Virus record (IMG/VR): IMGVR_UViG_3300049489_000540
Reading direction: 5' to 3' (one strand)
From: a virus
Taxonomy: Duplodnaviria; Heunggongvirae; Uroviricota; Caudoviricetes
DNA: 64,000 nucleotides
The position numbers and the translations under genes were made by a program. The notes beneath the pieces are model-generated. The model saw nothing but the letters and a program-made list of their open reading frames with translations, was not told where the DNA came from and searched no databases. Shown here piece by piece: positions 14,374 through 46,535 of the stretch (positions are counted from its first letter, which is position 1; each line of letters opens with the position of its first letter).

Positions 14374-14615
14374 GCCATAGCGTCTTTTTTGCTTTTAAAA
14401 TCACTAACTGTCTTACCATCATCAATTTGCATTGTTAAGACGGCTCTCCAGGTTGATGCCTTTATTTTATTAACAAAGGCTACTTTGATTTTATAGATAC
14501 CAAAGTACCACAAGCCATCACCTTCATGCCACTGTAAGTACCAGCGTTCCGTGGTGGCTAGCCGCTCTTGCAATTCCTCGTTATGTTTTTCCAATTCTTC
14601 GCTATATTTTCCCAT
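14343..14615 (-). CDS. family-1 small protein
   Basis: N-term MGKYSEELEKHNEELQERLATTERWYLQW. Confidence 0.65.
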   Translation of the reverse strand: MGKYSEELEKHNEELQERLATTERWYLQWHEGDGLWYFGIYKIKVAFVNKIKASTWRAVLTMQIDDGKTVSDFKSKKDAMAWVEKRLSEK

Positions 14616-17777: not shown

Positions 17778-18267
17778 GGCTACGGTGCCTACCTATGTTC
17801 ATGAATTGGAGCAGCGAGTTGACGAATTGGAAAATTTGTTAGGTCATCTTTCAAAAAGACACGAAGACTTACAAAATCGATATGCTCTATTAGACGAGTA
17901 TTCAAAGCAATGGTGTGCGTTTCTAAAAGCCGATAATTCATATATAAATTACACACAATTTGAATATCATACAATAAAGGCGGCTAGTTTATGTAATATG
18001 CTGCGAAAGCTCGGTTGTTGGCGAAAGAAAAGTGAGACATTAGCTTTAACCATCGGTAAACGGGGTGTGCCATGTTGGCATGTTATATTTGTGAAAGTGA
18101 GAGATAAAAAAACACGCGACATATGGACATATGAGTTAACTATATTCGGTGATAAAGATGTTACGCCATTACCTAGAAAATATGTAAAAACCGGTGAGGT
18201 ATCATGGAGACAAATTATAGCATGGGCTAAAAAACGTTGGTTAAATCGAGACGGAGTATTACCATGA
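17776..18267 (+). CDS. family-1 protein
   Basis: N-term MATVPTYVHELEQRVDELENLL; ATGA overlap with next gene at 18264-18267. Confidence 0.65.
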   Translation: MATVPTYVHELEQRVDELENLLGHLSKRHEDLQNRYALLDEYSKQWCAFLKADNSYINYTQFEYHTIKAASLCNMLRKLGCWRKKSETLALTIGKRGVPCWHVIFVKVRDKKTRDIWTYELTIFGDKDVTPLPRKYVKTGEVSWRQIIAWAKKRWLNRDGVLP

Positions 18268-18614
18268 CCTACACACATGATCTTGAAAAGCATGTCGAAG
18301 AGTTACAAGAAAAGCTAGCAGAGGCTGAATTGTATATATCGTCAGTTAAAAATTTACATATTCGTTTAAAACCATCTAGTTTCGCATACGGTACAAAAGA
18401 AATTATTGGATATAAATTTATGATTGGACGATTTGAAGTTGGATCTATCTGCCAACATAATAACAAGTCTAAGAGATGGTTTGGAAATTTATATGTTGGA
18501 CAACGATTCTTAGAACTAGGTGGCGGCGCGGTGTATGGTCGTGGTCACAACACACCACAAGAAGCTATGAACGAGCTTGAACAACTGCTATCGTTCAATC
18601 CTTCAGAAGCTTGA
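18264..18614 (+). CDS. family-1 small protein
   Basis: N-term MTYTHDLEKHVEELQEKLAEAELYIS; ATG at 18264 overlaps previous TGA. Confidence 0.7.
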   Translation: MTYTHDLEKHVEELQEKLAEAELYISSVKNLHIRLKPSSFAYGTKEIIGYKFMIGRFEVGSICQHNNKSKRWFGNLYVGQRFLELGGGAVYGRGHNTPQEAMNELEQLLSFNPSEA

Positions 18615-18867
18615 AAAATTCAGTCAACTCTCTGATTTCGCGTTCTTCGCTATGATCACCAGAATCAACCCATTCGATAGTATGGGCTATTTCAGCCACC
18701 TTGCGCATATGATCAACAAATTTTTGCCGCATATCTAGATGCTCTTTCGTATAGCCAGGCGACCAATCACCTTTTTCGGGATTTCTAAAATTGGCTATTT
18801 CATGATCCATTTCGTCACACAATTCCATGACTTTGAAAGATTTATAGTCGTAGTGTCCACCGCTCAT
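18595..18867 (-). CDS. hypothetical acidic protein
   Basis: 90-aa ORF, ATGA overlap with the upstream family-1 gene. Confidence 0.45.
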   Translation of the reverse strand: MSGGHYDYKSFKVMELCDEMDHEIANFRNPEKGDWSPGYTKEHLDMRQKFVDHMRKVAEIAHTIEWVDSGDHSEEREIRELTEFFKLLKD

Positions 18868-19154
18868 ACAAACTCCTTTTCGTATTTCTTTTTATATGTA
18901 TCTTTTACACTGAAAATTTCTTGCATGATTGTAAATGCAGCAAAATTCGCTTGTCTACGAGTTTTTATAAATTTTCCATCTATTAACGACATGGCGATAT
19001 TACAGTGAAATGTCCACGCATAGTCTGGATCTTTATCTAATCGTTCGCATAAATTGATATATGGATTGGACAATTTAGCAAGGGTCGTTTCCGCTTGAGT
19101 CAGTTTCTCTTGCAGTTCTTCAACATGCTGTTCAAGTGACTCGTTATATTTCAT
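18864..19154 (-). CDS. family-1 small protein
   Basis: N-term MKYNESLEQHVEELQEKLTQAETTLAKL. Confidence 0.65.
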   Translation of the reverse strand: MKYNESLEQHVEELQEKLTQAETTLAKLSNPYINLCERLDKDPDYAWTFHCNIAMSLIDGKFIKTRRQANFAAFTIMQEIFSVKDTYKKKYEKEFV

Positions 19155-23795: not shown

Positions 23796-24179
23796 ATGTC
23801 CTACGGCATGACTGTATATACTGAGGAATTGGAAAAGACCGTTAATGAGCTACAAGACAGGCTGACACAAGCTGCTTGTTGGGAGCCTCAGTGGGTGCGT
23901 GATAAGAAAAACCATTTAAAAGTAGAGCCATGGTTTCAAGATAAAGAATGCCGTATACATTATTACATGTCACAGTACATCATATATGCATATGTGATGC
24001 CCGTGGTCAGAGATAACGATAATGGAAAATCTGTATTAATATACGCAGCAAACACTATTCAAGCAGTTACTGATTTTCAGAAGTCACCCCATAGGCAATT
24101 TACGGACATGCTTCAAGCTATGTCGTGGGTGGAAACACATATGAAAACAATGTTTTCAGGTATTACAATACAGTATTAA
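23796..24179 (+). CDS. family-1 protein
   Basis: N-term MSYGMTVYTEELEKTVNELQDRLTQAACWEPQW. Confidence 0.65.
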   Translation: MSYGMTVYTEELEKTVNELQDRLTQAACWEPQWVRDKKNHLKVEPWFQDKECRIHYYMSQYIIYAYVMPVVRDNDNGKSVLIYAANTIQAVTDFQKSPHRQFTDMLQAMSWVETHMKTMFSGITIQY

Positions 24180-24181
24180 CT

Positions 24182-24709
24182 ATGCCGACATACATTGAAG
24201 AATTAGAGAAACAAAATGAAGAATTGCAAGAGAAGCTTGCAATAGCCGAAAAGTTTATTGCGGAACACAACATATGCATCGAAAATGGTGATGGTAAGCC
24301 GTATGCACCTTCATCAACAGAAATCGTTCGTGGTTGGCATTTACATGATATCAAACGCACATGCTACGAATGGGGCGTAGTCATTACTTGTAAAAAATCT
24401 TCTAAGACCTGGCTGGGCAAGACTAATGTTTCTTTATATTCGTTTGTATGTAAAATAAAGTTTGCTGCCAATACGACAAATTTTTCTGTCACCTATGCCA
24501 CATATCCTTCAAACGAATCCATATATCTAACACATGAAGAAAAATTCTGTGAATCAATGTTTGAAATGGCTCGACACAATCGCTTTGTGTTCATTGGAAC
24601 GATAAATAGTAAATCCACTGTTTTAGATTATGTTCAAATTGAAAAAAATGGAAAAACTTTTCACCGATGTCTTGAAAACGGTATAATACGATTAAAGTTA
24701 CCTTCATGA
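24182..24709 (+). CDS. family-1 protein
   Basis: N-term MPTYIEELEKQNEELQEKLAIAEKFIAEH from the ATG at 24182; the longer ORF from 24125 precedes the motif. Confidence 0.65.
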   Translation: MPTYIEELEKQNEELQEKLAIAEKFIAEHNICIENGDGKPYAPSSTEIVRGWHLHDIKRTCYEWGVVITCKKSSKTWLGKTNVSLYSFVCKIKFAANTTNFSVTYATYPSNESIYLTHEEKFCESMFEMARHNRFVFIGTINSKSTVLDYVQIEKNGKTFHRCLENGIIRLKLPS

Positions 24710-25260
24710 ACTATACACGGCAGTTAGAGCAACATGTCGAAGAGCTTCAAGAGAAGCTTACACATGCACATGATGTGATACATATGCATGAGAATAAAGA
24801 AAAGTTGCTAAAGAATTCATACATGTATTGTCCGTTTTATGTGCGTGTGGTACGATTCGATCAAGTTGCAAGTAAATTAGACACCAAGGAAGAAAGATAC
24901 GGTTGCATAGATTCTTTATTGTTAAATTTATCATTTTTAACACTTGATAAACGAGTGGTAGCTATACATATAACCAAATATGGTTTATTCAGTAAATTAG
25001 TATTTCATACGCTAGCTTTTCCACCAGAAGTTGCATTGCTCTCAACATCCATGTTATCATCTACGGAGAAGAAATGTAATCATAAAACATTTGCGTTTTA
25101 TGTGAAATATTCTGGTGATCCCATTCTAGATGCCATGGGTGGCAAATATATACATATATTAGACCACAATCCAACAGCCCACACCGTAACGCATTTTATT
25201 GATTTACATGAGATTTTGAAGAAGCGTTACCAGAGGCGAGGCGATCCTCTATCTCTTTAA
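24706..25260 (+). CDS. family-1 protein
   Basis: N-term MNYTRQLEQHVEELQEKLTHAHDVIHMHE; ATGA overlap with previous gene. Confidence 0.65.
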   Translation: MNYTRQLEQHVEELQEKLTHAHDVIHMHENKEKLLKNSYMYCPFYVRVVRFDQVASKLDTKEERYGCIDSLLLNLSFLTLDKRVVAIHITKYGLFSKLVFHTLAFPPEVALLSTSMLSSTEKKCNHKTFAFYVKYSGDPILDAMGGKYIHILDHNPTAHTVTHFIDLHEILKKRYQRRGDPLSL

Positions 25261-26228: not shown

Positions 26229-26891
26229 TTAAACGGGCGCAGTAACGGGCGCTACTTCGACCGGCACTTCGACCGGCTTGGTTGCCACTTCGACCGGCAC
26301 GGTCGGAGCCGCCGTAGGAGCCTCGTCCAGCCAGCCGCGACCGCCGCGCTTACGAAGCGGAAGGTCCACTCCACGCTGACGCAGACGGTGTACCTTCTGG
26401 ATGACGGTGCCCTCGGTGGTCTTGAGCGCCTTGGCGATTTCCAAGTACGAAGCGCCAGCATTCCACATTTCGATCAGGCGCTCTTCCTTGCGCTTCGTCT
26501 TTTCCGATCTGATGCGTAGTGCGACCTCGCGCCGATCAACTTCGACGCCCATGATCTGGCGCAGCTTGAATACCTCGTCGTAGCCAAGGTTCAGACCGCC
26601 CTCATACAGCTTCGCCTTCAATTCCTCTTGGGTCAGCCCGAGACGGAGGCACACGCCTTCCAGATAGAATTTGCGCTTGTCACTGATGATGGTGTCGTGC
26701 TGCCGTTCAACCTCCAAGTGGCGGCAGTAGCGGTCTATGACCCACCACTCAAGCCCAAGACGCTCACGGCATTCCGTGGCGAGGCGGTTGCGGGCAGCTT
26801 CAACGCTATCGACATTCAAGGTCTTAAGTGCCTCGGCAATGTTGCGACTGCGCGTATCAGGGGTATTACTCATAGTATTCCTACCTTTCAC
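26229..26891 (-). CDS. DNA-binding regulator with sigma-70 region-4/LuxR-type HTH (paralog of 46841..47749)
   Basis: 220 aa; HTH IEMWNAGASYLEIAKALKTTEGTVIQKVHRLRQRG; N-terminal region alignable with the 47749 paralog; GC-rich; Pro/Val/Ala-rich tail. Confidence 0.65.
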   Translation of the reverse strand: MKGRNTMSNTPDTRSRNIAEALKTLNVDSVEAARNRLATECRERLGLEWWVIDRYCRHLEVERQHDTIISDKRKFYLEGVCLRLGLTQEELKAKLYEGGLNLGYDEVFKLRQIMGVEVDRREVALRIRSEKTKRKEERLIEMWNAGASYLEIAKALKTTEGTVIQKVHRLRQRGVDLPLRKRGGRGWLDEAPTAAPTVPVEVATKPVEVPVEVAPVTAPV

Positions 26892-26986
26892 TGGTCATAT
26901 TACCAGCCTAGCCAACGAATGCAAGCACTTCTTTCTACCATCAACTTGGACAACATGTAACCTCTTATATGGGCTATCTTTAAAAC

Positions 26987-27019
26987 GGCATAAGCGGAGC
27001 CAAAAGCCCCGCTTATGCC
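26987..27019 (-). terminator. 11-bp hairpin downstream of the SPFH gene
   Basis: ggcataagcgg-agccaaaagcc-ccgcttatgcc followed on the minus strand by GTTTTAAAG. Confidence 0.5.
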
Positions 27020-27039
27020 CGTGCGACATGTCCGACTAC

Positions 27040-27999
27040 TTACTTGGAAGTTTTAGTCGGAGTTTTTGGTTCCACGATATTCGGTGGATTCTCTATCCCA
27101 TCGCCCATGTGAAGCAGCGGAACGGGGTACTGTCCCTTGTTGTCGATGAAGAACAGCTTGTGGGCTGGGTTCTTGCTCAACTCGTTCAGCGTCTCCAGTG
27201 CCTTAAGCTGCACATAGACGGGCGATGATGCCGCAGCTTCATTCAGCGTCTTGATCTTATATGCCTCGGCATCGGCTTCGATTCGCATACGAAGTGCGGC
27301 TTGTTCGGCTGCTGTCTTTTCTGCGGTAGCTTGTGCGACCTTCTGTTGCTGTTCGACAGTGAATCGCTGCAATTCAGCCTCTTGTCTGACGGCTGCTTGT
27401 TCGCGTTCTTTCTTCTGCTGCACAGCGGTCGAAATGACGGGTGGCAGCTTGATATCGCGCACCAGCACTTCGCTGATAGTGATGCCCATCGGTTCAAGTG
27501 TCTTCAATTCCGTTTCGATGAAATTCTGTAACTTTGTCTGTGTTTCATTGGTCATGTAATCTTCGGCACGATCAATCGTCTTGGTTGCTTCACGCAGCGC
27601 AGAACGCAACTTTGGTTGTAGAACAATAGCCTTCACACGTTCAATATCTCCAATTTCCTTGAGAATCTTGGGTGCCAGTGCTGGGTTGAGCGTGTATTGA
27701 ACGCTGACATCCAACTGGCTTTGAAGCTGATCGCGGCTCGGAACCGCAACATCATCTTCGGTGTGTGATTGTTGGCGAATATCAAATTCCACGACATGGC
27801 TCATGGGATTGATAGCATGCATGCCTTCACGCAGCGCCTGTTCATTGACGCTACCAAAGGTGACTTGAACACCAGCATGTCCGGGTTCAATGACGGTACA
27901 TGACTTGACCCCAAGGATCAAGAATGCTACGACGATGACCAAGAGAACGATCATGATGACGATATTGCCTTCGGTGAAGGCTCTGCGACTGTGATTCAT
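27040..27999 (-). CDS. SPFH/band-7 (stomatin/prohibitin/HflK-C-like) membrane protein
   Basis: 319 aa; N-terminal TM IVIMIVLLVIVVAFLILGV then VIEPGHAGVQVTFG band-7 start and long Ala/Gln/Glu coiled-coil tail. Confidence 0.7.
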   Translation of the reverse strand: MNHSRRAFTEGNIVIMIVLLVIVVAFLILGVKSCTVIEPGHAGVQVTFGSVNEQALREGMHAINPMSHVVEFDIRQQSHTEDDVAVPSRDQLQSQLDVSVQYTLNPALAPKILKEIGDIERVKAIVLQPKLRSALREATKTIDRAEDYMTNETQTKLQNFIETELKTLEPMGITISEVLVRDIKLPPVISTAVQQKKEREQAAVRQEAELQRFTVEQQQKVAQATAEKTAAEQAALRMRIEADAEAYKIKTLNEAAASSPVYVQLKALETLNELSKNPAHKLFFIDNKGQYPVPLLHMGDGIENPPNIVEPKTPTKTSK

Positions 28000-28002
28000 G
28001 GG

Positions 28003-28104
28003 TTAGTTTTCCTTTTTATTTTGTCCGGCAGTATAGCCAAGACGGTAGGCGACATAAAGCAGACCTGACACGATGATGACGCTGAGTGCGCCGAGAATAA
28101 ACAT
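28003..28104 (-). CDS. tiny single-TM protein directly upstream of the SPFH gene (NfeD/YbbJ-like partner position), not in ORF track
   Basis: 33 aa MFILGALSVIIVSGLLYVAYRLGYTAGQNKKEN; RBS aaggagaagcct; stop 3 nt before the SPFH ATG. Confidence 0.45.
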   Translation of the reverse strand: MFILGALSVIIVSGLLYVAYRLGYTAGQNKKEN

Positions 28105-28160
28105 AGGCTTCTCCTTGTGGATGGGTACTCTACCGATGATTTTTAAACATCAAGATCATT

Positions 28161-28544
28161 TTATATGCAGCCAACAAGCTTCTCAACCATGGCTTTTTCG
28201 ATGATCTTTTTAGAGATTGACAGATGGGGATGGGTCTTGTTCCAATCGAGCATGCCTTCCAGATCGTTTTCACTGATCAACTTCTGGCGCACCACCGCCT
28301 GGTGGTTTGGATCTGATGTGGCTTCGGCTGTCAGCGACCGTTTCTTCAAGATACGGTTTTTGATGGTGTCTTGCACCGCCTTTTCTTCTGGTCGGTACCG
28401 TGGAGAACTGGTCAGATGAAAGTCGCCGCAGCTTGGGCATGCGTACCAATACAATGACTGTCCACGAATTCCCTCGTACAGCAGAGCAGCAGTCGCAACC
28501 GAGTTTTCATCTCGGTAGCCTTGCTTACCGTGACACATGTGCAT
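28161..28544 (-). CDS. hypothetical protein with CxxC motif
   Basis: 127 aa; YACPSCGDFH. Confidence 0.45.
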   Translation of the reverse strand: MHMCHGKQGYRDENSVATAALLYEGIRGQSLYWYACPSCGDFHLTSSPRYRPEEKAVQDTIKNRILKKRSLTAEATSDPNHQAVVRQKLISENDLEGMLDWNKTHPHLSISKKIIEKAMVEKLVGCI

Positions 28545-29290: not shown

Positions 29291-29635
29291 TTACGGCATT
29301 AAATAGAAAACAGTAAGTTGTTTTTCAACATGCTGTTGAGCATCTTCTTTCGTTTTGAACATACCTATTTCAAGTGTTAATACGGCATGGTGATCATCAA
29401 TGTGTGGCATCGGTCGCCCCAACCAATAATCGCCGCGCCTGGTTACAGATCCATGTACATTACCAAGATTCGATGTTGGGCGTATTACCAAATAATACAG
29501 ATCATCTGTATCTTTGACCCACCGCAACATCAAATGCTCGCGTTTTCTAAACTGGTCTACTGTTTTTTCAGCAGCGGCAAGTAGCTCTTGTAATTCTGCA
29601 TTCTGCTTTTCTAGCTGTTCAATGTACTTATTCAT
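29291..29635 (-). CDS. family-1 protein
   Basis: N-term MNKYIEQLEKQNAELQELLAAAEK from the internal ATG at 29635; 8-nt overlap with upstream gene. Confidence 0.6.
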   Translation of the reverse strand: MNKYIEQLEKQNAELQELLAAAEKTVDQFRKREHLMLRWVKDTDDLYYLVIRPTSNLGNVHGSVTRRGDYWLGRPMPHIDDHHAVLTLEIGMFKTKEDAQQHVEKQLTVFYLMP

Positions 29636-29942
29636 TTTTGAGTTTTCGTAAAATAACATTAAACATGACTTTTTCGACATGTTCTTTACATTGTGACAAC
29701 GACTTACCTCTGGTCCCTTCCATGATAATGCCTGTTTCTGTATCGGAAACCAAAACATGCACACCATATGAGATATTATAATTTTTATCAACTTTATATA
29801 TCTGTGCAAGGTGAATACCCATGAAAATATAGGCTCCATTTGACCATCGTGGAGTATATACATGTTGCTTCGTCAACTCATTGGACAGTTGCTCTTGCAA
29901 CTCTTCACACCGCTTCTCAAGCTGCTCTGTGTATTTACTCAA
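29628..29942 (-). CDS. family-1 protein, probable TTG start
   Basis: (M/L)SKYTEQLEKRCEELQEQLSNELTKQ; TTG at 29942 preceded by GAAGGA SD; the track ORF start at 30047 is also TTG and lies upstream of the motif. Confidence 0.5.
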   Translation of the reverse strand: MSKYTEQLEKRCEELQEQLSNELTKQHVYTPRWSNGAYIFMGIHLAQIYKVDKNYNISYGVHVLVSDTETGIIMEGTRGKSLSQCKEHVEKVMFNVILRKLKNE

Positions 29943-30747
29943 AGCGTATCCTTCTAAAGTATCTTGGAGTATATTCGTCAGAACATAGTGCCCGATTGTC
30001 TCCACACGATACAACAGTAGCACCACAATCATTGCCTTTACTTCCAATGTATGTTATCAATGCTGTTTTTTCCGATGTCATTTTCGAATCTACAATGAAA
30101 GAAAATCTGCCTCTTTGCATACTGGAAAATCTGCTATTCACACTAAACTTATGAATATCATTTGTTATGATAGAACTATTATCATATTTAATTATATCAT
30201 CCCAAAGATGTGAGCTTACTAGACATACATTTCCAGCCCCCCTTCTCGTATCTCTGGCAATTTTATTTGACTCAATAACAAATAAGGTCAATGCGTCAGG
30301 TAATTTTGCTAATGGATATGCAGTTAATTCTCCGAAGTTCCAAAATTGTTTGTATACATCAAATGGATTTATGTTTGGTTTAAGAGTACATGCTATTTTG
30401 TGTATTGTAAGTCCCATGTAATTAGTAGTAGCACCATTATTATCATAGACATAACGCAAAAAATAAGCATGCGCCTCCGTGACATCCTTTTGATCTATAA
30501 CTTGTTGAGGTATTATTTTATATACCTCTGCGTGCAATTGATACAAATATGTATCCCATTCCATCAGAAGACTATCAAGGTATTCTATACCAGTTTCGTA
30601 ATGGCTGAATGAACCATCGTGCTGTGGTTGTATGACACCTGTAAATTGTGTGTCTATTGACTTAATGTTGTTTAAGAGTGTTTCTGCACGAAACACTCGT
30701 TGCTGATAAGCCTCTTTCAATTCATGTAAATATTGTTCTTTATACAC
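29935..30747 (-). CDS. hypothetical protein (270 aa; weak family-1-like N-terminus)
   Basis: N-term MYKEQYLHELKEAYQQRVFRAETLL. Confidence 0.5.
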   Translation of the reverse strand: MYKEQYLHELKEAYQQRVFRAETLLNNIKSIDTQFTGVIQPQHDGSFSHYETGIEYLDSLLMEWDTYLYQLHAEVYKIIPQQVIDQKDVTEAHAYFLRYVYDNNGATTNYMGLTIHKIACTLKPNINPFDVYKQFWNFGELTAYPLAKLPDALTLFVIESNKIARDTRRGAGNVCLVSSHLWDDIIKYDNSSIITNDIHKFSVNSRFSSMQRGRFSFIVDSKMTSEKTALITYIGSKGNDCGATVVSCGDNRALCSDEYTPRYFRRIRFE

Positions 30748-31051: not shown

Positions 31052-31494
31052 GTTGGCTCTTCTGGCATCCATAGGTAAATATTTTTTGGTGGTGTGATTG
31101 GAATTGGAGCCATATATCTAGATCCAGGGACTACCATGCAGGTTCTAGCATCCATAACCTGACACAATACTGCCATTTCTATGAAAAAACTAATTCTTAC
31201 AATTGTATGTGATTCCATGATAAATCGTAATGCAGATGATTCGTTTTTAAAGTATTCAAGTCCTTTAAGTTTGAGTAATTTTATCGTATCTCGAAATTCT
31301 GGTCGAGTCAAACTGAATGTTACACGGTTATATGTACGCACATCTTCCATTTCGACACGCATTGTGTATAAAAAACACCTATTACGCCTACGCCGGTTTT
31401 CATTATCCGAAATATTGATATATGTTAGAGCATCTGCAAGTAGCTCTTGCAACTCGGCATTCTGCTTCTCTAGTTGTTCACAATAGTTAGCCAA
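31048..31494 (-). CDS. family-1 protein
   Basis: N-term MANYCEQLEKQNAELQELLADALTYINIS. Confidence 0.65.
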   Translation of the reverse strand: MANYCEQLEKQNAELQELLADALTYINISDNENRRRRNRCFLYTMRVEMEDVRTYNRVTFSLTRPEFRDTIKLLKLKGLEYFKNESSALRFIMESHTIVRISFFIEMAVLCQVMDARTCMVVPGSRYMAPIPITPPKNIYLWMPEEPT

Positions 31495-31813
31495 GGAATA
31501 TTTTCCTTATAATTAACTTTTCCATAACTCGTTCAACATGATTTTTACATTGAGTCAATGATTTTCCTTTCGTTCCCCCTCTTATAGTACCGGCATTCAA
31601 ATCTTTGGTTTTTAATGGTATACCATATACAATAGTGAAGCTATCTCCATTCGGTAGGATTTCAGCCAGCGATATATCTAAAAATACATAGTGGTGATGA
31701 TTGGCAGTTTTTCTCCATATAGGCACATATTTGCTGTGTTTCGTCATTAATTCTGACAGTTGCTCCTGCAACTCGTCACACCGCTTCTCTAATTCATCAA
31801 CATATATACTCAT
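31487..31813 (-). CDS. family-1 protein
   Basis: N-term MSIYVDELEKRCDELQEQLSELMTKH. Confidence 0.65.
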   Translation of the reverse strand: MSIYVDELEKRCDELQEQLSELMTKHSKYVPIWRKTANHHHYVFLDISLAEILPNGDSFTIVYGIPLKTKDLNAGTIRGGTKGKSLTQCKNHVERVMEKLIIRKIFLG

Positions 31814-32740: not shown

Positions 32741-33172
32741 TTGCATAGTTATACTACCAATCTTGAGCAGCATGTTGAGCAACTTCAAGAGTTGCTTGCA
32801 GCCGAACAAGCTGCGCACGCTCATACTAAAGTCTGGTCTGATCAGCGTATTGTACTATCATATAAAGCGTACTATATAATCATAACGACACTTAAATCAC
32901 GCATACGATCCAGAGAACTAACACGGGCTGGCGCAAAAGAATGTTTCCGCAACAGAAGATTTACATTATCCGATCAATTGAAAATTATAGGAAGATATTA
33001 CGATGCCAATTTCTATGCCTTTATAAACAGTCTCGATGATGTCTTAAATATACAACTTTCAATATCCAATGTAAAACCCATAAAAAGTTCAGATGGAATT
33101 CATTATAATTACACCGTATCAAATTACACAGAAATATATCTCTACATGAAATCACATGCCGTATACACATGA
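32741..33172 (+). CDS. family-1 protein
   Basis: N-term MHSYTTNLEQHVEQLQELLAAEQAAHAHTKVW. Confidence 0.65.
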   Translation: MHSYTTNLEQHVEQLQELLAAEQAAHAHTKVWSDQRIVLSYKAYYIIITTLKSRIRSRELTRAGAKECFRNRRFTLSDQLKIIGRYYDANFYAFINSLDDVLNIQLSISNVKPIKSSDGIHYNYTVSNYTEIYLYMKSHAVYT

Positions 33173-33551
33173 TCTAGAAAAGCATATTGACGAGTTGCAA
33201 GAGTTGCTTGCAGCCGAACAAGAGCGTTCCAAGTGGCTGGAAGCCTGGGCGGATCAACGAGTCAATTATGGTAAGAAATTTTACTCGATGGTCGCAAACG
33301 TTGGCTACATGCACATACAATCCGCATATTTTACAAAATCCATTGCTAGGTCGTTTTTTTCGCCGGAATTACCACCACCAAGTAATCGTTTATCGACACT
33401 ATTGTCTACATATTTTACTGCTTCGATAAGTGAGAAAAATCTTGTGTCACTTCATTTGATTATAGGCTACCAGAAAATATTCCGTAGAGTTAACCGTCCT
33501 ACATATATTGAAACAAAATCAAAAGAAATATTGCTGTACAAGAAATTTTAA
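33156..33551 (+). CDS. family-1 protein
   Basis: N-term MPYTHDLEKHIDELQELLAAEQERSKWLEAW. Confidence 0.65.
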   Translation: MPYTHDLEKHIDELQELLAAEQERSKWLEAWADQRVNYGKKFYSMVANVGYMHIQSAYFTKSIARSFFSPELPPPSNRLSTLLSTYFTASISEKNLVSLHLIIGYQKIFRRVNRPTYIETKSKEILLYKKF

Positions 33552-35625: not shown

Positions 35626-36540
35626 ATGATCCAGAAGCTGACCGTTGAGCAAATCAACTTGTTCCCCCATTATGTTGAAAAGTGGACCAAGCACGGCTAC
35701 GACACTTCACCACTTGATCCCGTAGCCGTGAAGTCAGCTATCGAAAAGCTGTACACATGCGGCGGCTTGAAGCCACCCGAAAAGATTGTGTTGTGTCGCG
35801 GTCCAATCGAAGCGATCCTCACCGTCAACATGTACTTCTTCAAGAAGGAAAATCCGAAGGCGACGAAGAAGGAAATCATCGCTTTCGCCAAGAAAAACAG
35901 CGTATTCACATCATGTGGCTATGGAAGCTTCGACGCTAGCTGGGTCAGCTTCTATGATTTCTTCCAGAACGAAACCGATATCGGCAATCTGGATATCATC
36001 AATGGTATCAAGGAAACCACGCTTGCGTGTGGCTGGTATTGGGCATATTCTGATATCTGCTTCGTCAGCGAAAAGCCGTACATTCTCAAGGTCAATGATG
36101 TGAATATGCTGCATTGCGAAGATGGTCCAGCCCTGGCATATCACGACGGCACCGAATTGTATTTTTACAACGGTGTTATGATGGACAAGGAAACCATCTG
36201 CAATCACGCTTCGATCACGCCCGAGTCGATCAACAACACCGACAACGAAGAACAGAAGCGCATCAAGATCGAAATCTACGGCGTCAACAAGTACCTCGAA
36301 GATATCAAGGCTGATGTGATCGACATGGATATGGTCAAGATCAACAGCTACGACAAGGACTCCGACGCCATTCCTCGCGCACTGATCAAGGACAAGGACG
36401 GCAACCACTACCTCGTCGGCACGGACGGATCCACGGAACGCACGTACTACATGAACGTGCCGAACACCGTCAAGACTTGTGCCGCAGCCCACAACGCTAT
36501 CGCACCGCTTAAAGAGAGCAACTGCATAGCCTCGTCGTAG
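35626..36540 (+). CDS. hypothetical protein (GC-rich)
   Basis: 304-aa ORF. Confidence 0.55.
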   Translation: MIQKLTVEQINLFPHYVEKWTKHGYDTSPLDPVAVKSAIEKLYTCGGLKPPEKIVLCRGPIEAILTVNMYFFKKENPKATKKEIIAFAKKNSVFTSCGYGSFDASWVSFYDFFQNETDIGNLDIINGIKETTLACGWYWAYSDICFVSEKPYILKVNDVNMLHCEDGPALAYHDGTELYFYNGVMMDKETICNHASITPESINNTDNEEQKRIKIEIYGVNKYLEDIKADVIDMDMVKINSYDKDSDAIPRALIKDKDGNHYLVGTDGSTERTYYMNVPNTVKTCAAAHNAIAPLKESNCIASS

Positions 36541-36547
36541 TGGTCAG

Positions 36548-36817
36548 ATGAAACGCAAAAAATGCTTTCAGAACCGTCTCTGTGATGCTAGTGTCATGGA
36601 GACGGTTTATACAAAACAACTTGATAGCTGTTATGCGAAAAGGCATGATGCTGGATATATTGCTTGGATCCCAGCGAGAGATAATATTTTACACAATGTT
36701 GGAACAAATCTATGGGAAAATATCGCAGAACATATACGCAATAAAGTTTCAGCACATATACTAAAGGATATATACACAAAGTCACAGCTTGAAGCAGCTT
36801 ACGGTAACTTATTATGA
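36548..36817 (+). CDS. family-2 mini-protein (divergent body, conserved C-terminal helix)
   Basis: ends ...TKSQLEAAYGNLL; ATGA overlap with next gene. Confidence 0.6.
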   Translation: MKRKKCFQNRLCDASVMETVYTKQLDSCYAKRHDAGYIAWIPARDNILHNVGTNLWENIAEHIRNKVSAHILKDIYTKSQLEAAYGNLL

Positions 36818-37062
36818 TGATAGTGAGCGATAATGTTTGGTGTAAAATAGCACACGATATTTCGCTTCGTCTTGCTGATATTTTATCAAAAAGGGATATT
36901 GAACATTCTGCTCAATACGATGTTATTAATAATGTCAGGACATTGGTTCATAACAATGTTATAGATAATGTTAAAGACCATGTTAGTACATATGCCAGTT
37001 GTTACACAAAACCAACCAGATCACAGCTTGAAGCAGCTTACAAGGTCTTGGGGCAGATATGA
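36814..37062 (+). CDS. family-2 mini-protein
   Basis: V-x-x-N/H tetrapeptide repeats; ends TRSQLEAAYKVLGQI; ATGA overlap. Confidence 0.65.
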   Translation: MMIVSDNVWCKIAHDISLRLADILSKRDIEHSAQYDVINNVRTLVHNNVIDNVKDHVSTYASCYTKPTRSQLEAAYKVLGQI

Positions 37063-37313
37063 AACTTGTTAGCGTTTATGAAGATGTTAGTGCGAATGTT
37101 TACCAGAATGTCATGACCGCTGTCTGGGATAATATCAGGACTAATGTCAAGGATAATGTCTGGAATACTGTCAGAAATAATGTCTGGAATAATATCTGGA
37201 ATAATATCTGGAATAATACCAAGATTAATGTTGAGGATAATGTCAGGAATACTATCAGAAATGATGTCGTTGCTGATTCGCAGCTTGAAGCAGCTTACGG
37301 TAACTTGTTGTAG
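37059..37313 (+). CDS. family-2 mini-protein
   Basis: VWDNIRTNVKDNVWNTVRNNVWNNIWNNIWNN tetrapeptide repeats; ends DSQLEAAYGNLL. Confidence 0.65.
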   Translation: MKLVSVYEDVSANVYQNVMTAVWDNIRTNVKDNVWNTVRNNVWNNIWNNIWNNTKINVEDNVRNTIRNDVVADSQLEAAYGNLL

Positions 37314-38335: not shown

Positions 38336-38626
38336 TTAATCACCGAAAATCATTTTCTCAACATACTTTTTTGCTTCTTCAATATCAACAAATCGTATTT
38401 CATCATCATTAAATTTTAAAACACTTTCCAATCGAGGAATGAAATACCCATCTATCGTTTCAATACTGGCAATGTATGCACGACCAATCGCATAGTGCCA
38501 GGTTCCAGCTTGTGTGAGTTCTCGAAGCCACTCTGGCTTATATCGGCTCAATTCTGTTTGAGCAACGGCAAGAGCGTCTTGCAGTTCTGTATTTTGCTTC
38601 TCTAGAGAATCGGTATATTCGCTCAT
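38336..38626 (-). CDS. family-1 protein
   Basis: N-term MSEYTDSLEKQNTELQDALAVAQTELSRYKPEW. Confidence 0.65.
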   Translation of the reverse strand: MSEYTDSLEKQNTELQDALAVAQTELSRYKPEWLRELTQAGTWHYAIGRAYIASIETIDGYFIPRLESVLKFNDDEIRFVDIEEAKKYVEKMIFGD

Positions 38627-38958
38627 GCGTATCGTTTAAGTATTTCTTCTTCAAAGGCTTTCATAGCTTCTGCTGGGGTATCATATACTTTATTATGAGA
38701 TATGTTATCTATGGGTTCATCATCGCGTTTTTTGAAAAAAAGATTATATTTCCTATCTTTTTCTCGTAACCAAACCGACCCAAACGAATAATATCTTTTT
38801 CCATATAGCACATTTGTTGTGACGAATTCATAGTTTTCATCTTTGCATCGTACAGTTTTTATCCACTTGGGTTTCCATTTCGACAAGTCATGTTCAGTCT
38901 CGGCAAGCCGCTGTTCCAGTTCAAGAACATGCTGCTCTAGTGACTCGGTGTAAACCAT
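38623..38958 (-). CDS. family-1 protein
   Basis: N-term MVYTESLEQHVLELEQRLAETEHDLSKWKPKW; ATGA overlap. Confidence 0.65.
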   Translation of the reverse strand: MVYTESLEQHVLELEQRLAETEHDLSKWKPKWIKTVRCKDENYEFVTTNVLYGKRYYSFGSVWLREKDRKYNLFFKKRDDEPIDNISHNKVYDTPAEAMKAFEEEILKRYA

Positions 38959-38997
38959 AAGCAGCTATCCTATACCCTATATGCAGTTTTTCAACAA

Positions 38998-39354
38998 CTA
39001 TTTTTTAGATGTATACGGTACAACAGTACGACCATGGGCATAATTCCTCAACATATCAATGTCATAAATGGACCCACAAGGATTACAACGGTCTTTAACT
39101 GACTTATATAGTCTGCTACTGCTATATGGCGTTGGCGACGATAATGGAACCACATAAACAACGTCCAGCATCGGAACAACCACCAAATCAGCAGTAATAT
39201 TCAAAGCAGCTTCTCTAGAAACATTACCATCACAAATAACAACGAATCGTGTATTGTTTTGTAAATCTTCAACTGTCTTTTGTTGAATAGCAAGCTGCTC
39301 TTGCAGTTCCTCGATGTGTAATTCCAATTGGCGGGTATAGGATTTATGCTGCAT
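38998..39354 (-). CDS. family-1 protein
   Basis: MQHKSYTRQLELHIEELQEQLAIQQKTVEDL from an internal Met; 11-nt overlap with upstream gene. Confidence 0.55.
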   Translation of the reverse strand: MQHKSYTRQLELHIEELQEQLAIQQKTVEDLQNNTRFVVICDGNVSREAALNITADLVVVPMLDVVYVVPLSSPTPYSSSRLYKSVKDRCNPCGSIYDIDMLRNYAHGRTVVPYTSKK

Positions 39355-39667
39355 ATTTAGGTCCAAATAGCACTTCGACATGCGCTTTCGCCTCTTCAAT
39401 CGAAGTAAAAAATTTCTGCACAGGAGGACTCATATCAACATGATATTTACTGTCATCGGTTATTGATTGCCGTATGGTAGCTAAACAGATACCGTTGATC
39501 ATATATTTTGTGTACCAACTGAAAATTGCTCTTGGTGGCTGTGCAGCATCTTCCCATCGCGGAACCAATCGTTGTAGTGCTTCAACTTTAGCTTCCGATA
39601 CTGCAAGCTGCTCTTGCAGTTCTTCAATGTGCTGTTCTAGGTCCAACACATAACTCACAAAACACAT
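39344..39667 (-). CDS. family-1 protein
   Basis: N-term MCFVSYVLDLEQHIEELQEQLAVSEAKVEALQRL. Confidence 0.65.
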   Translation of the reverse strand: MCFVSYVLDLEQHIEELQEQLAVSEAKVEALQRLVPRWEDAAQPPRAIFSWYTKYMINGICLATIRQSITDDSKYHVDMSPPVQKFFTSIEEAKAHVEVLFGPKYAA

Positions 39668-40062
39668 CCTTTGAATAACACGATTTCTTTAAATGTTTCT
39701 TGCATGTACACGGTCCCATCTTCATCTTTTGCCACGCGAGTAAACCCTTGAACACGGATACACGCATGTGCAATCATGAATCCTTGTTGTATGTTTTCTG
39801 CATGCGTCACAAACATATACCATGGGAGATAGTTTGGCAATTCTGGCATATCAACTGTAAATTTACGCTTAATAAGATCATGGGCTACGGATCTTGTTAT
39901 CTCTTCACGCAATCCTGTTATTCCATGTTCTTTGGTGTAATTAATATGAAGTTCGTAGTAATACCGTGGTCTATGCCACAGCCAATCATTGGTTGCTTGC
40001 TCTTTAGCAAGCAACTCTTGTAGCTGCTCAATATGCTCTTCAAGTTGCTTCGAGTAGCTCAT
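39655..40062 (-). CDS. family-1 protein
   Basis: N-term MSYSKQLEEHIEQLQELLAKEQATNDWLW. Confidence 0.65.
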   Translation of the reverse strand: MSYSKQLEEHIEQLQELLAKEQATNDWLWHRPRYYYELHINYTKEHGITGLREEITRSVAHDLIKRKFTVDMPELPNYLPWYMFVTHAENIQQGFMIAHACIRVQGFTRVAKDEDGTVYMQETFKEIVLFKGCVL

Positions 40063-40424
40063 CGGTGTAGCTCATACATAATTTTTATATTTGTTGTTTT
40101 TGCACTCATTCCGTCAAACTCGTCATGGTTATGGTAAGGAAGAGCAACCAATGTGAGCATGAATGTTCTTATATGCTTTTTTGGAAACATAGCCATGAGA
40201 AGGAAATCTATTCCATTCTCTTTAATACTTTTCAGCATGCGAGTCATATGACTTCGAACGATGAATCGCCGTTGAGATTCTTCATCCGTTTCATGAAGCA
40301 TAACATAGTAAAAGTGTAATCTTTGCCTTTCTTTCCAGGCAATGAATGCCCGAGCCTCACTAAGCAACTCTATAAGCTGCTCGTTCTGCTTTTCCAGAGA
40401 TTCAGTGTAGGCTTTAGAGTTCAC
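40059..40424 (-). CDS. family-1 protein
   Basis: N-term MNSKAYTESLEKQNEQLIELLSEARAFIAWKE; ATGA overlap. Confidence 0.65.
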   Translation of the reverse strand: MNSKAYTESLEKQNEQLIELLSEARAFIAWKERQRLHFYYVMLHETDEESQRRFIVRSHMTRMLKSIKENGIDFLLMAMFPKKHIRTFMLTLVALPYHNHDEFDGMSAKTTNIKIMYELHR

Positions 40425-40698
40425 TTGTCTCTTTATTGGTATTACGATTAGCTATACCATAACTCGCCTCTTCGCTCCGTCGATACCGCGCCAGGTACGC
40501 ACCATATAGCCGACCTCGTTCATCTGGACTGTGTGTTGATAGTTTCCGACCCTTAATACGATCCGACAATCGACACCATTCTTCGTAGGTCATCGGTGGC
40601 AATCGTTTCAACAACGGATCATTCTTACGGTATTTAACTACCTTGACCGATCCAAGTCCCCTGGTAGCTCCTACAAAGTTGTGTGAGTGTATGCCCAT
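40414..40698 (-). CDS. hypothetical basic protein
   Basis: 94-aa ORF, Arg/Lys-rich. Confidence 0.4.
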   Translation of the reverse strand: MGIHSHNFVGATRGLGSVKVVKYRKNDPLLKRLPPMTYEEWCRLSDRIKGRKLSTHSPDERGRLYGAYLARYRRSEEASYGIANRNTNKETSEL

Positions 40699-40709
40699 AA
40701 GTTATATCT

Positions 40710-46476: not shown

Positions 46477-46535
46477 AAAGTCAACAATGACTTTTTAAAG
46501 TACCTATGAATGTAAACACATGCAGCTAAAGGTGT

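What the first reader, a model, noticed from the sequence alone, without database searches (positions are those of the whole stretch)
27040..28104. Phage-encoded SPFH/band-7 protein with a tiny upstream single-TM partner and its own terminator
The 319-aa ORF has the N-terminal TM plus VIEPGHAGVQVTFG start of SPFH proteins and a long coiled-coil tail. A 33-aa single-TM ORF, absent from the ORF track, ends 3 nt before its ATG. This mirrors the bacterial SPFH-NfeD/YbbJ operon layout. SPFH proteins organise membrane microdomains and regulate FtsH-type proteases, and they also occur in anti-phage systems. A phage copy in a GC-rich island next to an HTH regulator suggests manipulation of host membrane proteostasis or counter-defence.
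Basis: partly seen in the sequence, partly recalled or inferred. Interest (0 to 1): 0.6.

Follow-up and report, generated by a model that had tools for sequence, protein, structure and literature searches.

The report
Phage prohibitin-like protein with micro-partner
An uncultured T4-like phage carries a small self-contained operon for a prohibitin/HflC-type membrane-scaffold protein and a conserved 33-residue membrane peptide; the scaffold type is already known in phages, and only the peptide partner is new.

Summary
The 319-aa ORF (27040-27999, minus strand) is an SPFH/Band_7 protein (Pfam 82 bits against a cut-off of 23.6). A 33-aa single-TM ORF (28003-28104) ends 3 nt before its ATG. A 15-bp hairpin with a U-run follows 20 nt after the stop.

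New here: the small ORF is a real gene. Orthologues of 33-38 aa lie directly upstream of the SPFH gene in nine independent phage-like lineages whose GC3 runs from 0.10 to 0.90. They show purifying selection, have their own Shine-Dalgarno, and mostly overlap the SPFH start (ATGA). The peptide's K/E-rich tail codons also form the SPFH ribosome-binding site. The family is very small (8 hits among 1.84 billion representatives) and is absent next to bacterial homologues.

The NfeD/YbbJ analogy fails as membership. The SPFH belongs to the prohibitin/HflC branch, which has no known NfeD partners, the peptide has no NfeD domain, and about 74 bacterial cousins show no recurrent NfeD neighbour.

Phage SPFH genes have been annotated since 2006 and occur in 718 phage records. 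Function is untested. My best guess is an early-expressed, periplasm-facing cage that alters host membrane-protein quality control. Verdict: new variant of a known kind, moderate interest.

The parts
28158..28186 (-). Sigma-70-like promoter candidate (TTGAGA, 17 nt, TAAAAT; 10 of 12). It lies in the 3' end of the upstream gene, with the -10 box ending 53 nt before the small-ORF ATG.
   Evidence: Relatives have stronger sites at the same place: L057 has TTGACA-16-TATAAT (12/12). L001 and L062 have TTGACT-type sites scored 9/12. L061 has TTGACT-17-TATACT, read by eye from the printed sequence. These are consensus matches only; function is inferred.
28111..28116 (-). Shine-Dalgarno AAGGAG, 6 nt upstream of the small-ORF ATG.
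   Evidence: Sequence. An equivalent AAGGAG, AGGAGG or AAAGGA is present in 7 of the 8 other loci that carry the small ORF. GC-rich L063 has only AAGG.
28003..28104 (-). Gene for a 33-aa single-pass membrane micro-protein. The TM is roughly residues 2-20, followed by a YRLGYxxG juxtamembrane motif and a K/E/N-rich tail. Predicted topology is N-out/C-in. The last codons (AAA AAG GAA AAC) double as the SD of the SPFH gene.
   Evidence: It is conserved in 9 lineages. dN/dS is about 0.19. The profile finds only 8 true family members (33-38 aa) among 1.84e9 representative proteins.
27040..27999 (-). Gene for a 319-aa SPFH protein of the prohibitin/HflC type.
27901..27969 (-). SPFH residues 11-33: the N-terminal TM anchor. 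It is preceded by an 11-residue cytoplasmic tail (MNHSRRAFTEG) and followed by Cys34.
   Evidence: AF2 helix 11-33 and the alignment. The lipobox rule is not met because K sits at position -2.
27448..27900 (-). SPFH residues 34-184: the alpha/beta SPFH (Band_7) body.
   Evidence: Pfam match over residues 36-223. AF2 strands and helices with pLDDT 85-92.
27172..27441 (-). SPFH residues 187-276: the long CC1 helix (187-258, 72 aa) and the CC2 helix (260-276), which form the cage wall.
   Evidence: Foldseek top matches are the prohibitin, erlin and HflK/C cage protomers.
27106..27168 (-). SPFH residues 278-298: the highly conserved C-terminal motif PAHKLFFIDNKGQYPVPLLHM. By analogy with solved cages it is the presumed cap-forming segment.
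   Evidence: Columns P278, K281, F284, P292, P294 and L295 are invariant across 34 homologues. pLDDT is low in the monomer model, as expected for a segment that folds only in the oligomer. Its role is inferred.
26978..27019 (-). Intrinsic terminator: a 15-bp GC-rich hairpin (26987-27019) followed by GUUUU, starting 20 nt after the SPFH stop.
   Evidence: The position is conserved in WIN, L001, L002, L055, L056, L057, L059/147/148, L060, L061 and L062.

Best explanation
The locus is a compact, self-contained early transcription unit of an uncultured T4-like or large phage. It consists of a sigma-70-type promoter, a 33-aa membrane micro-protein gene, a 319-aa SPFH gene and an intrinsic terminator.

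Shown:
- The SPFH protein belongs to the prohibitin/HflC branch of the SPFH superfamily. It has one N-terminal TM anchor, the SPFH body, a 72-residue CC1 helix, a CC2 helix and a conserved C-terminal cap motif.
- It is the only SPFH gene in the window.
- The micro-protein is a conserved coding gene that is always found fused in operon with this SPFH. Its stop overlaps or abuts the SPFH start, and its tail codons carry the SPFH Shine-Dalgarno.
- The pair is ancestral to two viral SPFH clades and was lost at least three times. In the two losses nested in the close clade (L061, L062) a sigma-70 promoter takes its place.
- The micro-protein's divergence tracks that of the SPFH N-terminal tail and TM segment more closely than that of the SPFH body.

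Inferred:
- The two genes are translated in coupled, near-stoichiometric amounts.
- The SPFH assembles into a homo-oligomeric cage of roughly 22-24 subunits on the periplasmic face of the inner membrane, as HflK/C and prohibitin do.
- The N-out/C-in micro-protein packs its TM helix against the ring of SPFH TM anchors.
- The complex fences off a membrane patch early in infection.

Most speculative step: the cage captures or shields host membrane quality-control machinery (FtsH-type protease), or stabilises the energised membrane. That would protect phage membrane proteins and delay premature collapse or abortive infection.
For: SPFH identity and branch:
- Pfam Band_7 at 82 bits.
- The profile search against PDB is best to prohibitin-2 (1.2e-14), then prohibitin and HflC, ahead of QmcA and stomatin.
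- The AF2 model has pLDDT 80.8. Foldseek ranks the prohibitin complex, erlin and HflK/C cages first.
- There is only one SPFH gene in the window.

Micro-protein is real and coupled:
- Orthologues lie directly upstream of SPFH in the window, L001, L002/3, L055, L056, L057/58, L059/147/148/149, L060 and L063.
- dN/dS is 0.17-0.47, with third positions saturated.
- SD motifs are present, and the SPFH SD is embedded in the tail codons.
- Every family member with known context sits next to a Band_7 gene.
- Only 8 true hits turn up among 1.84e9 representatives.

Co-inheritance: Mantel r = 0.85 (p = 0.0006) against the SPFH N-terminus and TM, versus r = 0.56 (p = 0.03) against the body.

Ancestral pair with losses: NJ tree. 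A sigma-70-like promoter replaces the small ORF in L061 (TTGACT-17-TATACT, read by eye) and L062 (TTGACT-16-TAGACT, 9/12). L064 also lacks the small ORF, but nothing promoter-like was scored there.

Autonomous unit: terminator hairpins in 10 loci and promoters in several.

Age of the pair: the module's GC3 follows each phage genome, from 0.10 to 0.90, so the pair is old rather than a recent capture.

Topology:
- The micro-protein has 3 K/R in its C-flank and none at the N-terminus.
- Eight of 34 family members have a lipobox and would therefore be exported.
- HflK/C are periplasmic with an N-terminal TM helix, and FtsH periplasmic domains bind their SPFH2 domains (PMC12624060).

Cage size: the regression y = 0.1782x + 10.22 on CC1 length (PMC12624060) gives about 23 subunits for 72 aa.
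Against: - No experiment or expression data exist for any member.
- Positive-inside evidence for the SPFH topology is weak (net +1 against 0).
- Identity to HflC or prohibitin is only about 20%. The protein fails the NCBIfam HflC equivalog cut-off (30 bits against 134), so FtsH binding cannot be assumed.
- Three lineages keep SPFH without the micro-protein, so it is dispensable for SPFH function in some contexts.
- If lipobox-bearing members such as P0017 are really cleaved lipoproteins, they would lose the TM helix that the micro-protein is proposed to bind, yet P0017 keeps the micro-protein.
- The correlation with the TM segment could simply reflect two fast-evolving segments tracking divergence time.
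Confidence: 0.55

Rival explanations
1. The small ORF is only a translational leader. Its translation delivers ribosomes to the SPFH start by termination-reinitiation, or brings the mRNA to the membrane, and the peptide itself has no function.
For: - The stop and start overlap, and the SPFH SD lies inside the small-ORF tail.
- Three lineages lost the ORF but kept the SD-bearing tail remnant and the SPFH gene.
Against: - The peptide sequence is under purifying selection (dN/dS about 0.2).
- The motif MFxLGxLSxIxLxxLLYxxYRxGYxxG persists across genomes with GC3 from 0.10 to 0.90 and saturated synonymous sites.
- The length (33-38 aa) and TM character are invariant.
Confidence: 0.15
2. This is a minimal SPFH-NfeD-type pair. 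The peptide would be a degenerate NfeD/YbbJ that regulates the SPFH cage from the same side of the membrane as in QmcA-YbbJ.
For: - The arrangement is co-directional and adjacent, with the small membrane gene upstream of SPFH.
- QmcA is among the structural matches (8z5g, E = 5e-11).
Against: - There is no NfeD domain hit, and 33 aa cannot hold an OB fold.
- The SPFH is closer to prohibitin and HflC than to QmcA or stomatin.
- NfeD partners are known only for SPFH1, 2 and 5 (PMC2636767).
- There is no recurrent NfeD next to about 74 bacterial homologues.
- The small-protein HMM finds nothing in 80 bacterial loci.
Confidence: 0.05
3. The pair is a superinfection-exclusion or counter-defence module. 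An early-expressed periplasm-facing membrane complex would block DNA entry by other phages or neutralise membrane-targeting abortive-infection effectors, independently of FtsH.
For: - The unit is moron-like and autonomous, with a sigma-70-type promoter and its own terminator.
- It is predicted to sit in the inner membrane and periplasm.
- It lies in an early-type region that also has rIIA and rIIB.
- In T4-like phages Margaery and vB_Mm5 the SPFH gene lies two genes from a 'lysis inhibition' gene.
- Pseudopilin-like genes recur next to phage SPFH genes.
Against: - There is no homology to any known exclusion or anti-defence protein, and no PADLOC hit.
- The support is purely contextual.
Confidence: 0.2
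4. The peptide is a client rather than a partner. It would be a small membrane-active toxin or holin-like peptide whose activity is contained by the SPFH cage until the right time.
For: - It is a tiny hydrophobic single-TM peptide with a charged tail, which resembles small membrane toxins and holin-type peptides in general form.
- It is strictly linked with SPFH.
Against: - There is no lysis cassette nearby.
- Lineages that lost the peptide keep SPFH, whereas loss of the 'antidote' while keeping the toxin was never seen but would also be lethal, so this is uninformative.
- There is no similarity to known toxins.
Confidence: 0.05

Closest known systems
HflK/HflC (E. coli), with the downstream small membrane gene yjeT
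   Same: - Both have an N-terminal single TM anchor, an SPFH body, long CC helices and a C-terminal cap segment.
- HflK/C chains are among the best structural and sequence matches.
- HflK/C form a periplasmic cage that holds FtsH (PMC12624060).
- The E. coli operon also carries a tiny membrane-protein gene next to hflC: yjeT, 65 aa, DUF2065, 82 nt downstream.
   Different: - Identity is only about 20%, and the protein fails the HflC equivalog cut-off.
- There is a single SPFH gene rather than a K/C heteropair.
- The partner is upstream and translationally coupled, has 33 aa and one TM, and has no DUF2065 match.
- It is encoded by a phage.
Bacterial 'prohibitin family' proteins (SPFH4, p-prohibitins of Hinderhofer et al. 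2009)
   Same: - These are the closest cellular homologues, at 43-50% identity over the full length. They occur in Planctomycetota, Myxococcota, Acidobacteriota, Woeseiaceae, Opitutales and others.
- The architecture and the conserved C-terminal motif are the same.
   Different: - The bacterial genes stand among unrelated housekeeping genes and have no small TM ORF upstream (1 of 80, against 6 of 80 in the antisense control).
- The small-protein HMM finds no match in these loci.
- The viral clades have a distinct N-terminus ([ST]RRG-type tail and a Cys after the TM).
Phage SPFH proteins of PHROG 200 ('lipoprotein' / 'SPFH domain-containing protein') in T5-like, T4-like (RB43, 44RR, Aeh1), Vi01-like and Vibrio phages
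   Same: - The window protein matches the PHROG 200 profile (4e-55).
- 718 phage records have a tblastn hit.
- These genes have been noted in T4-like genomes since 2006 (PMC1524935).
- Their function is likewise unknown.
   Different: - Identity to the window protein is only 27-33%.
- No cultured phage has the micro-protein family.
- Some have other small membrane genes adjacent. Vibrio 495E54-1 has a 59-aa 2-TM protein upstream. Aeromonas phage 31 has a pseudopilin-like gene downstream. Margaery and PMBT1 have an unannotated 32-aa TM ORF downstream.
- T5-like bux has none.
QmcA-YbbJ and other SPFH-NfeD operons
   Same: An SPFH gene is paired with an adjacent membrane-protein gene in one operon, and the SPFH forms a cage (8z5g is among the structural matches).
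   Different: - NfeD proteins have a C-terminal OB-fold domain and usually several TM helices, and pair with SPFH1, 2 and 5, whose SPFH domains face the cytoplasm.
- Here there is no NfeD domain, the SPFH is of the prohibitin/HflC type, and the SPFH body probably faces the periplasm (PMC2636767).

Membership tests
SPFH / Band 7 superfamily (PF01145) | Match to the Band_7 profile above the curated cut-off | tested here: met
   82.1 bits against a 23.6-bit cut-off, E = 6.4e-23, residues 36-223.
SPFH / Band 7 superfamily (PF01145) | N-terminal membrane anchor, alpha/beta SPFH fold, then long coiled-coil helices | tested here: met
   The AF2 model (pLDDT 80.8) has a TM helix at 11-33, the SPFH body at 34-184, and helices at 187-258 and 260-276. 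Foldseek probability is 1.00 to prohibitin, erlin, HflK/C, stomatin and flotillin protomers.
SPFH / Band 7 superfamily (PF01145) | Assembly into a high-order ring or cage | not testable with these tools
   Only a monomer model was possible. About 23 subunits is an extrapolation from CC1 length (PMC12624060).
Prohibitin / HflK/C branch (SPFH3/SPFH4) | Closer in sequence and structure to prohibitin and HflC than to stomatin, QmcA or flotillin | tested here: met
   Profile against PDB: PHB2 1.2e-14, prohibitin 3e-12, HflC 9e-12, QmcA 3.6e-10, stomatin 2e-6. Foldseek gives the same order. NCBI names its bacterial homologues 'prohibitin family protein'.
Prohibitin / HflK/C branch (SPFH3/SPFH4) | Orthology to HflC (NCBIfam equivalog TIGR01932 / NF008259) | tested here: not met
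   30.2 bits against a cut-off of 134.4, and 29 bits against 427. It is therefore not an HflC orthologue.
Prohibitin / HflK/C branch (SPFH3/SPFH4) | SPFH body on the periplasmic side (N-in TM anchor) | tested here: inconclusive
   Flanking charges are +1 (N) against 0 (C). Eight of 34 family members carry a lipobox and would therefore be exported. This leans periplasmic but is unproven.
Prohibitin / HflK/C branch (SPFH3/SPFH4) | Physical association with an FtsH-type AAA protease | not testable with these tools
   This needs co-purification or a structure.
Prohibitin / HflK/C branch (SPFH3/SPFH4) | Two paralogous subunits forming heterodimers (HflK+HflC, PHB1+PHB2) | tested here: not met
   A tblastn of the SPFH protein against the 64-kb window finds only the gene itself. 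Related loci also show a single Band_7 gene.
NfeD / YbbJ partner proteins (PF01957) | NfeD C-terminal OB-fold domain | tested here: not met
   There is no Pfam, NCBIfam or PHROG hit for the 33-aa protein even at E <= 0.1. The protein is too short for the domain.
NfeD / YbbJ partner proteins (PF01957) | Adjacent and co-oriented with an SPFH gene in one operon | tested here: met
   The gap is 3 nt in the window, and the genes overlap in most orthologous loci.
NfeD / YbbJ partner proteins (PF01957) | Partner SPFH belongs to subfamily SPFH1, 2 or 5 | tested here: not met
   The SPFH is of the prohibitin/HflC type. Hinderhofer 2009 found no NfeD for SPFH3, 4 or 6-12 (PMC2636767). There is no recurrent NfeD beside 74 upstream or 73 downstream neighbours of bacterial homologues.
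Known anti-phage defence systems (PADLOC-DB v2) | Match to a defence-system protein model | tested here: not met
   No hit at E <= 0.01 for the SPFH, the micro-protein or the upstream 127-aa protein. The HTH-like neighbour has only weak CARF/CasR HTH matches.
Bacterial lipoproteins (the PHROG 200 label 'lipoprotein') | Lipobox before the Cys: no D/E/R/K in the six preceding positions, then [LIVMFWSTAG]2-[LIVMFYSTAGCQ]-[AGS]-C | tested here: not met
   The window protein has ...LGVKSC with K at position -2. Eight of the 34 aligned homologues do meet the rule.
Intrinsic (Rho-independent) terminator | GC-rich hairpin followed by a U-run just after the stop codon | tested here: met
   A 15-bp stem followed by GUUUU, 20 nt after the stop. 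It has only 4 U, so the strict scanner missed it. The position is conserved in 10 loci.

The most novel reading that the evidence does not exclude
The micro-protein plus prohibitin-like SPFH is a phage-specific two-component membrane-cage system. The 33-aa peptide would act as the specificity or assembly factor that lets a homo-oligomeric viral cage enclose a host inner-membrane machine (FtsH or another complex) within minutes of infection. That would be a previously unrecognised way for lytic phages to take over host membrane-protein quality control. The recurrent small single-pass genes next to unrelated phage SPFH genes (2-TM peptide, pseudopilin-like proteins, 32-aa ORF) would be analogous adaptors.
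Probability: 0.2. Interest if true: 0.65.

Novelty: new variant of a known kind. Interest (0 to 1): 0.4.

Why it matters
SPFH genes occur in more than 700 sequenced phages, including T5-like, T4-like and Vibrio phages, yet none has a demonstrated function. This locus shows that in one viral lineage the SPFH gene is inherited as a unit with a dedicated, translationally coupled 33-aa membrane peptide. That gives a concrete two-protein complex to reconstitute. It also gives a simple genetic handle, because natural variants with and without the peptide exist. Finally, it is a clean example of a conserved micro-ORF that length-filtered ORF tracks miss. If the cage acts on FtsH or on membrane integrity, it would add a new layer to phage takeover. 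If not, it remains an ordinary accessory membrane protein.

Tried and rejected
Searches that gave nothing useful:
- A megablast of 25.5-29.5 kb against 50,697 phage records found no match, so the phage is not close to any cultured one.
- An IMG/VR scan with the single protein found nothing. With the alignment it found only 38-45% relatives that lack the small ORF.
- Rfam found nothing between 25 and 30 kb.
- PADLOC gave no hit.

Ideas tested and dropped:
- Homology between the micro-protein and the small TM ORFs next to SPFH in Vibrio 495E54-1, S4-7, Margaery and PMBT1. HMM scores were negative. The 'MHVLGILTL' resemblance is not significant.
- Stop-codon read-through or a fusion of the two ORFs. 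They are in frame in the window and L001, but the frame relation differs in the other loci (ATGA or TAATG overlaps), so they are separate proteins.
- A Tat signal. The window protein has S-R-R-A-F. However, the RR pair is present in only about 10 of 23 viral orthologues, and the hydrophobic region is about 20 strongly hydrophobic residues. I read this as a positive-inside anchor.
- A lipoprotein. The lipobox rule fails.
- Recent horizontal capture from a GC-rich bacterium. The best bacterial identity is only about 50%. The module's GC3 follows each phage genome. Other conserved genes in the window are equally GC3-rich.
- Antisense ORFs inside the SPFH gene (26737-27228, 27251-27559 on the plus strand). 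Their 'homologues' are just the antisense of conserved SPFH DNA.
Full report
**Observation.**
- A 319-aa ORF on the minus strand (27040-27999, ATG to TAA) is preceded by a 33-aa ORF (28003-28104, MFILGALSVIIVSGLLYVAYRLGYTAGQNKKEN). The small ORF's TAA stop is separated from the downstream ATG by the three bases CCC.
- Twenty nucleotides after the 319-aa ORF's stop lies a perfect 15-bp GC-rich hairpin (26987-27019) followed by GUUUU. The 86-nt stretch folds at -31.3 kcal/mol, z = -3.5. The consensus scanner missed it only because it demands five U.
- GC content rises to 0.45-0.60 between about 25.75 and 28.75 kb, against 0.32-0.43 in the windows on either side.

**What the large protein is.**
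- It matches Pfam Band_7 at 82 bits (cut-off 23.6) and PHROG 200 at 4e-55.
- A database search finds 267 homologues. A tight group of metagenomic proteins is 69-90% identical. A second group is 48-57% identical. Chromosomal 'prohibitin family' proteins of many bacterial phyla are 43-50% identical.
- A profile of 34 family members hits solved structures in this order: prohibitin-2, prohibitin, HflC, prohibitin-1, QmcA, stomatin.
- The AlphaFold2 model (pLDDT 80.8) has a TM helix (11-33), the SPFH alpha/beta body (34-184), a 72-residue helix (187-258) and a second helix (260-276). The C-terminus has low confidence but carries the most conserved motif of the family, KLFFIDNKGQYPVPLLHM.
- Foldseek ranks the human prohibitin complex, erlin and HflK/C cage protomers first.
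- It is therefore a prohibitin/HflC-type SPFH (SPFH4-like in the scheme of PMC2636767). It is not an HflC orthologue (30 bits against a 134-bit cut-off).
- It is the only SPFH gene in the window.

**What the genome is.**
- PHROGs identify rIIA (9844-11991) and rIIB (8848-9786) homologues and an HNH endonuclease.
- rIIA is at most about 29% identical to cultured T4-like phages.
- There is no nucleotide match to 50,697 phage records.
- The window comes from a 91-kb JGI contig on which both genes were already called: 'HflC (stomatin/prohibitin superfamily)' and 'hypothetical protein'.
- Contigs carrying the close SPFH relatives encode CCA-adding enzyme, NAD-salvage enzymes, RNA ligase, UvdE, dCMP deaminase and many small ORFs. 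This is typical of large lytic phages.

**The small ORF is a gene.**
- An ORF of 33-38 aa with the same pattern (MFxLGxLSxIxLxxLLYxxYRxGYxxG plus a K/E/Q-rich tail) lies immediately upstream of SPFH in these loci: window, L001, L002/L003, L055, L056, L057/L058, L059/L147/L148/L149, L060 and L063. In L063 the SPFH is only 51% identical.
- These genomes span GC3 from 0.10 to 0.90, and the pair's composition follows each of them.
- Against the closest relative, dN/dS is 0.19. Overall, third positions differ at 0.48-0.79 and first and second positions at 0.15-0.47.
- All but GC-rich L063 have a Shine-Dalgarno-type motif (AAGGAG, AGGAGG or AAAGGA) ahead of the ATG. In most, the stop overlaps the SPFH start (ATGA or TAATG). 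The SPFH ribosome-binding site (AAGGAG or AAAGGA) is written in the codons of the peptide's lysine/glutamate-rich tail.
- A profile of the peptide finds 10 clusters in the 5.8-billion-protein index and 8 true hits among 1.84 billion representatives. All are 33-38 aa, and none is part of a larger protein.
- Every member with known context is next to a Band_7 gene.

**Distribution and history.**
- The peptide is absent from 80 bacterial loci encoding the closest cellular homologues. The HMM gives no hit there. A generic small TM ORF appears upstream in 1 of 80 loci, against 6 of 80 in the antisense control.
- It is also absent from ten IMG/VR loci with 38-45% SPFH relatives.
- Three viral lineages (L061, L062, L064) lack it. 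Two of them (L061, L062) nest inside the clade that has it, and L064 sits in the second viral clade alongside L063, which has it.
- In L061 and L062 a sigma-70-type promoter (TTGACT-type -35 box) sits where the TM-coding part would be, while the SD-bearing tail-like sequence remains.
- The pair is therefore ancestral to two viral clades and was lost at least three times.
- Apart from the closely related L002, which shares a syntenic block (127-aa Zn-ribbon protein / peptide / SPFH / 220-aa protein / 165 aa / 87 aa), the other relatives share only the two-gene module with the window.

**Transcription unit.**
- A stable hairpin, usually with a U-run, follows the SPFH stop in ten loci.
- Sigma-70-like promoters precede the module in the window (10/12), L057 (12/12), L001, L061 and L062.
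- In other loci the pair follows an upstream gene directly.
- The simplest reading is an early, host-RNA-polymerase-driven, terminator-bounded unit. This is inferred from sequence only.

**The NfeD idea.**
- The layout is similar, but membership fails.
- There is no NfeD domain, and 33 aa is too short for one.
- The SPFH belongs to the branch for which no NfeD partners are known (PMC2636767).
- Neighbours of 74 (upstream) and 73 (downstream) bacterial homologues are unrelated housekeeping genes without recurrent NfeD.
- A closer analogy is the E. coli hflK-hflC-yjeT arrangement, where a 65-aa DUF2065 membrane protein gene follows hflC. There is no sequence relation to it.

**How it probably works.**

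Shown:
- The SPFH has a cage-type architecture.
- The peptide is a strictly linked, selected, translationally coupled single-TM gene.
- The peptide's divergence correlates with that of the SPFH N-terminal tail and TM (Mantel r = 0.85, p = 0.0006) more than with the SPFH body (r = 0.56, p = 0.03).

Inferred:
- The peptide is N-out/C-in, because all three basic residues follow the TM.
- The SPFH is N-in with its body in the periplasm. The charge bias for this is weak. It is supported by lipobox-bearing relatives (8 of 34) and by the periplasmic location of HflK/C (PMC12624060).
- The two TM helices would then sit side by side, each with a short cytoplasmic tail.
- Extrapolating the published relation between CC1 length and subunit number (PMC12624060) gives about 23 subunits.

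Speculative: by analogy with HflK/C and prohibitins, which hold AAA proteases, the cage may sequester or shield FtsH or otherwise stabilise the membrane early in infection. Rival readings are a pure translational leader, an exclusion or counter-defence module, and a caged toxic peptide. These are listed with their tests.

**Comparison and novelty.**
- Phage SPFH genes are not new. Band-7 hits were tabulated for 44RR, Aeh1 and RB43 in 2006 (PMC1524935), and 718 phage records give tblastn hits.
- I found no paper reporting a function.
- What appears new is the dedicated micro-protein partner and its coupling. It has no family in Pfam, PHROGs or NCBIfam.
- I rate this a new variant of a known kind, with moderate interest.

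**Caveats.**
- There is no expression or interaction evidence.
- The topology is unproven.
- If lipobox-bearing members such as P0017 are truly cleaved, the TM-TM model needs revision.
- The TM correlation may only reflect two fast-evolving segments.
- The 'HTH regulator' neighbour (26229-26891) has only sub-threshold HTH matches, although it has a paralogue at 46841-47749.
- The GC-rich island is shared by other conserved genes of the window: rIIB GC3 0.71, rIIA 0.59, 35626-36540 0.70 and 61339-62709 0.75. It does not mark the SPFH unit as a special import.

Noticed in passing
window 36548-37313 (+), 41461-43789 (+), 44420-46844 (-), 50555-51401 (-): A large array of back-to-back paralogous genes for proteins of about 80-100 aa, 25-45% identical to one another and with at least 25 copies on both strands. 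This is an unusually expanded multigene family for a phage genome.
   Followed up: no
window 14343-14615, 18237-19154, 23796-25260, 29291-30047, 31487-31813, 33156-33551, 38336-41072, 48356-49472; L002 3822-4331: A second loose family of small proteins shares an N-terminal 'Y-x-EQLEK-x-x-EELQ' coiled-coil motif and is scattered through the window. One member sits directly upstream of the peptide/SPFH pair in the related contig L002.
   Followed up: no
window 8848-9786 (-) and 9844-11991 (-): rIIB and rIIA homologues (PHROG 609 at 1e-51; PHROG 612 at 2e-60) have the highest GC3 in this part of the window (0.71 and 0.59). The closest cultured rIIA is only about 29% identical.
   Followed up: partly
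window 26229-26891 (-) and 46841-47749 (-): The 220-aa 'HTH' neighbour has GC 0.59, weak sub-threshold GcrA / sigma-70 region 4 / NirDL HTH matches, and a Pro/Val/Ala/Glu-rich tail. It has a 302-aa paralogue 20 kb away (36% over 138 aa). The related contig L002 keeps it next to SPFH at 75% identity.
   Followed up: partly
L001 4830-5837; L057 180-1007; window 51702-53006: A DUF723/HNH-type (homing) endonuclease gene lies directly upstream of the peptide-SPFH module in L001 and two genes upstream in L057. The window's homologue is 24 kb away. This is a possible vehicle for module mobility.
   Followed up: no
L001 7072-7380; L059 397-696; L153 (Aeromonas phage 31) 2379-2597: Pseudopilin-like genes (N-terminal AFTLIELM / GFTLIELM class-III signal motif) recur next to phage SPFH genes that are only about 30% identical to each other. 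None was found in the window (the 44RR ORF097c/098c pair in PMC1524935).
   Followed up: partly
L154 (Citrobacter phage Margaery) 2382-2480; L155 (Klebsiella phage PMBT1) 2375-2473: An unannotated 32-aa TM ORF lies about 55 nt downstream of the SPFH gene and is conserved between two Straboviridae genera (MNIKQIILTIFISLFFGFIGGFLGVLVIASVL / MNIKQIVLTILISLFFGFIGGLFGVLIIASVL). Vibrio phage 495E54-1 has a 59-aa 2-TM gene directly upstream of its SPFH. Neither is homologous to the window peptide.
   Followed up: partly
window 27985-27999 region (SPFH residues 4-8): The SPFH N-terminus reads S-R-R-A-F, which resembles a twin-arginine motif, and a basic residue precedes Cys34. The RR pair is present in only about 10 of 23 viral orthologues, so it is probably just a positive-inside signal.
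   Followed up: partly
window 62754-62839 (+): A single tRNA-Leu (anticodon TAA) gene lies next to a DUF7788/DUF2828 protein (61339-62709; PHROG 850 'RNA-binding protein', GC3 0.75).
   Followed up: no
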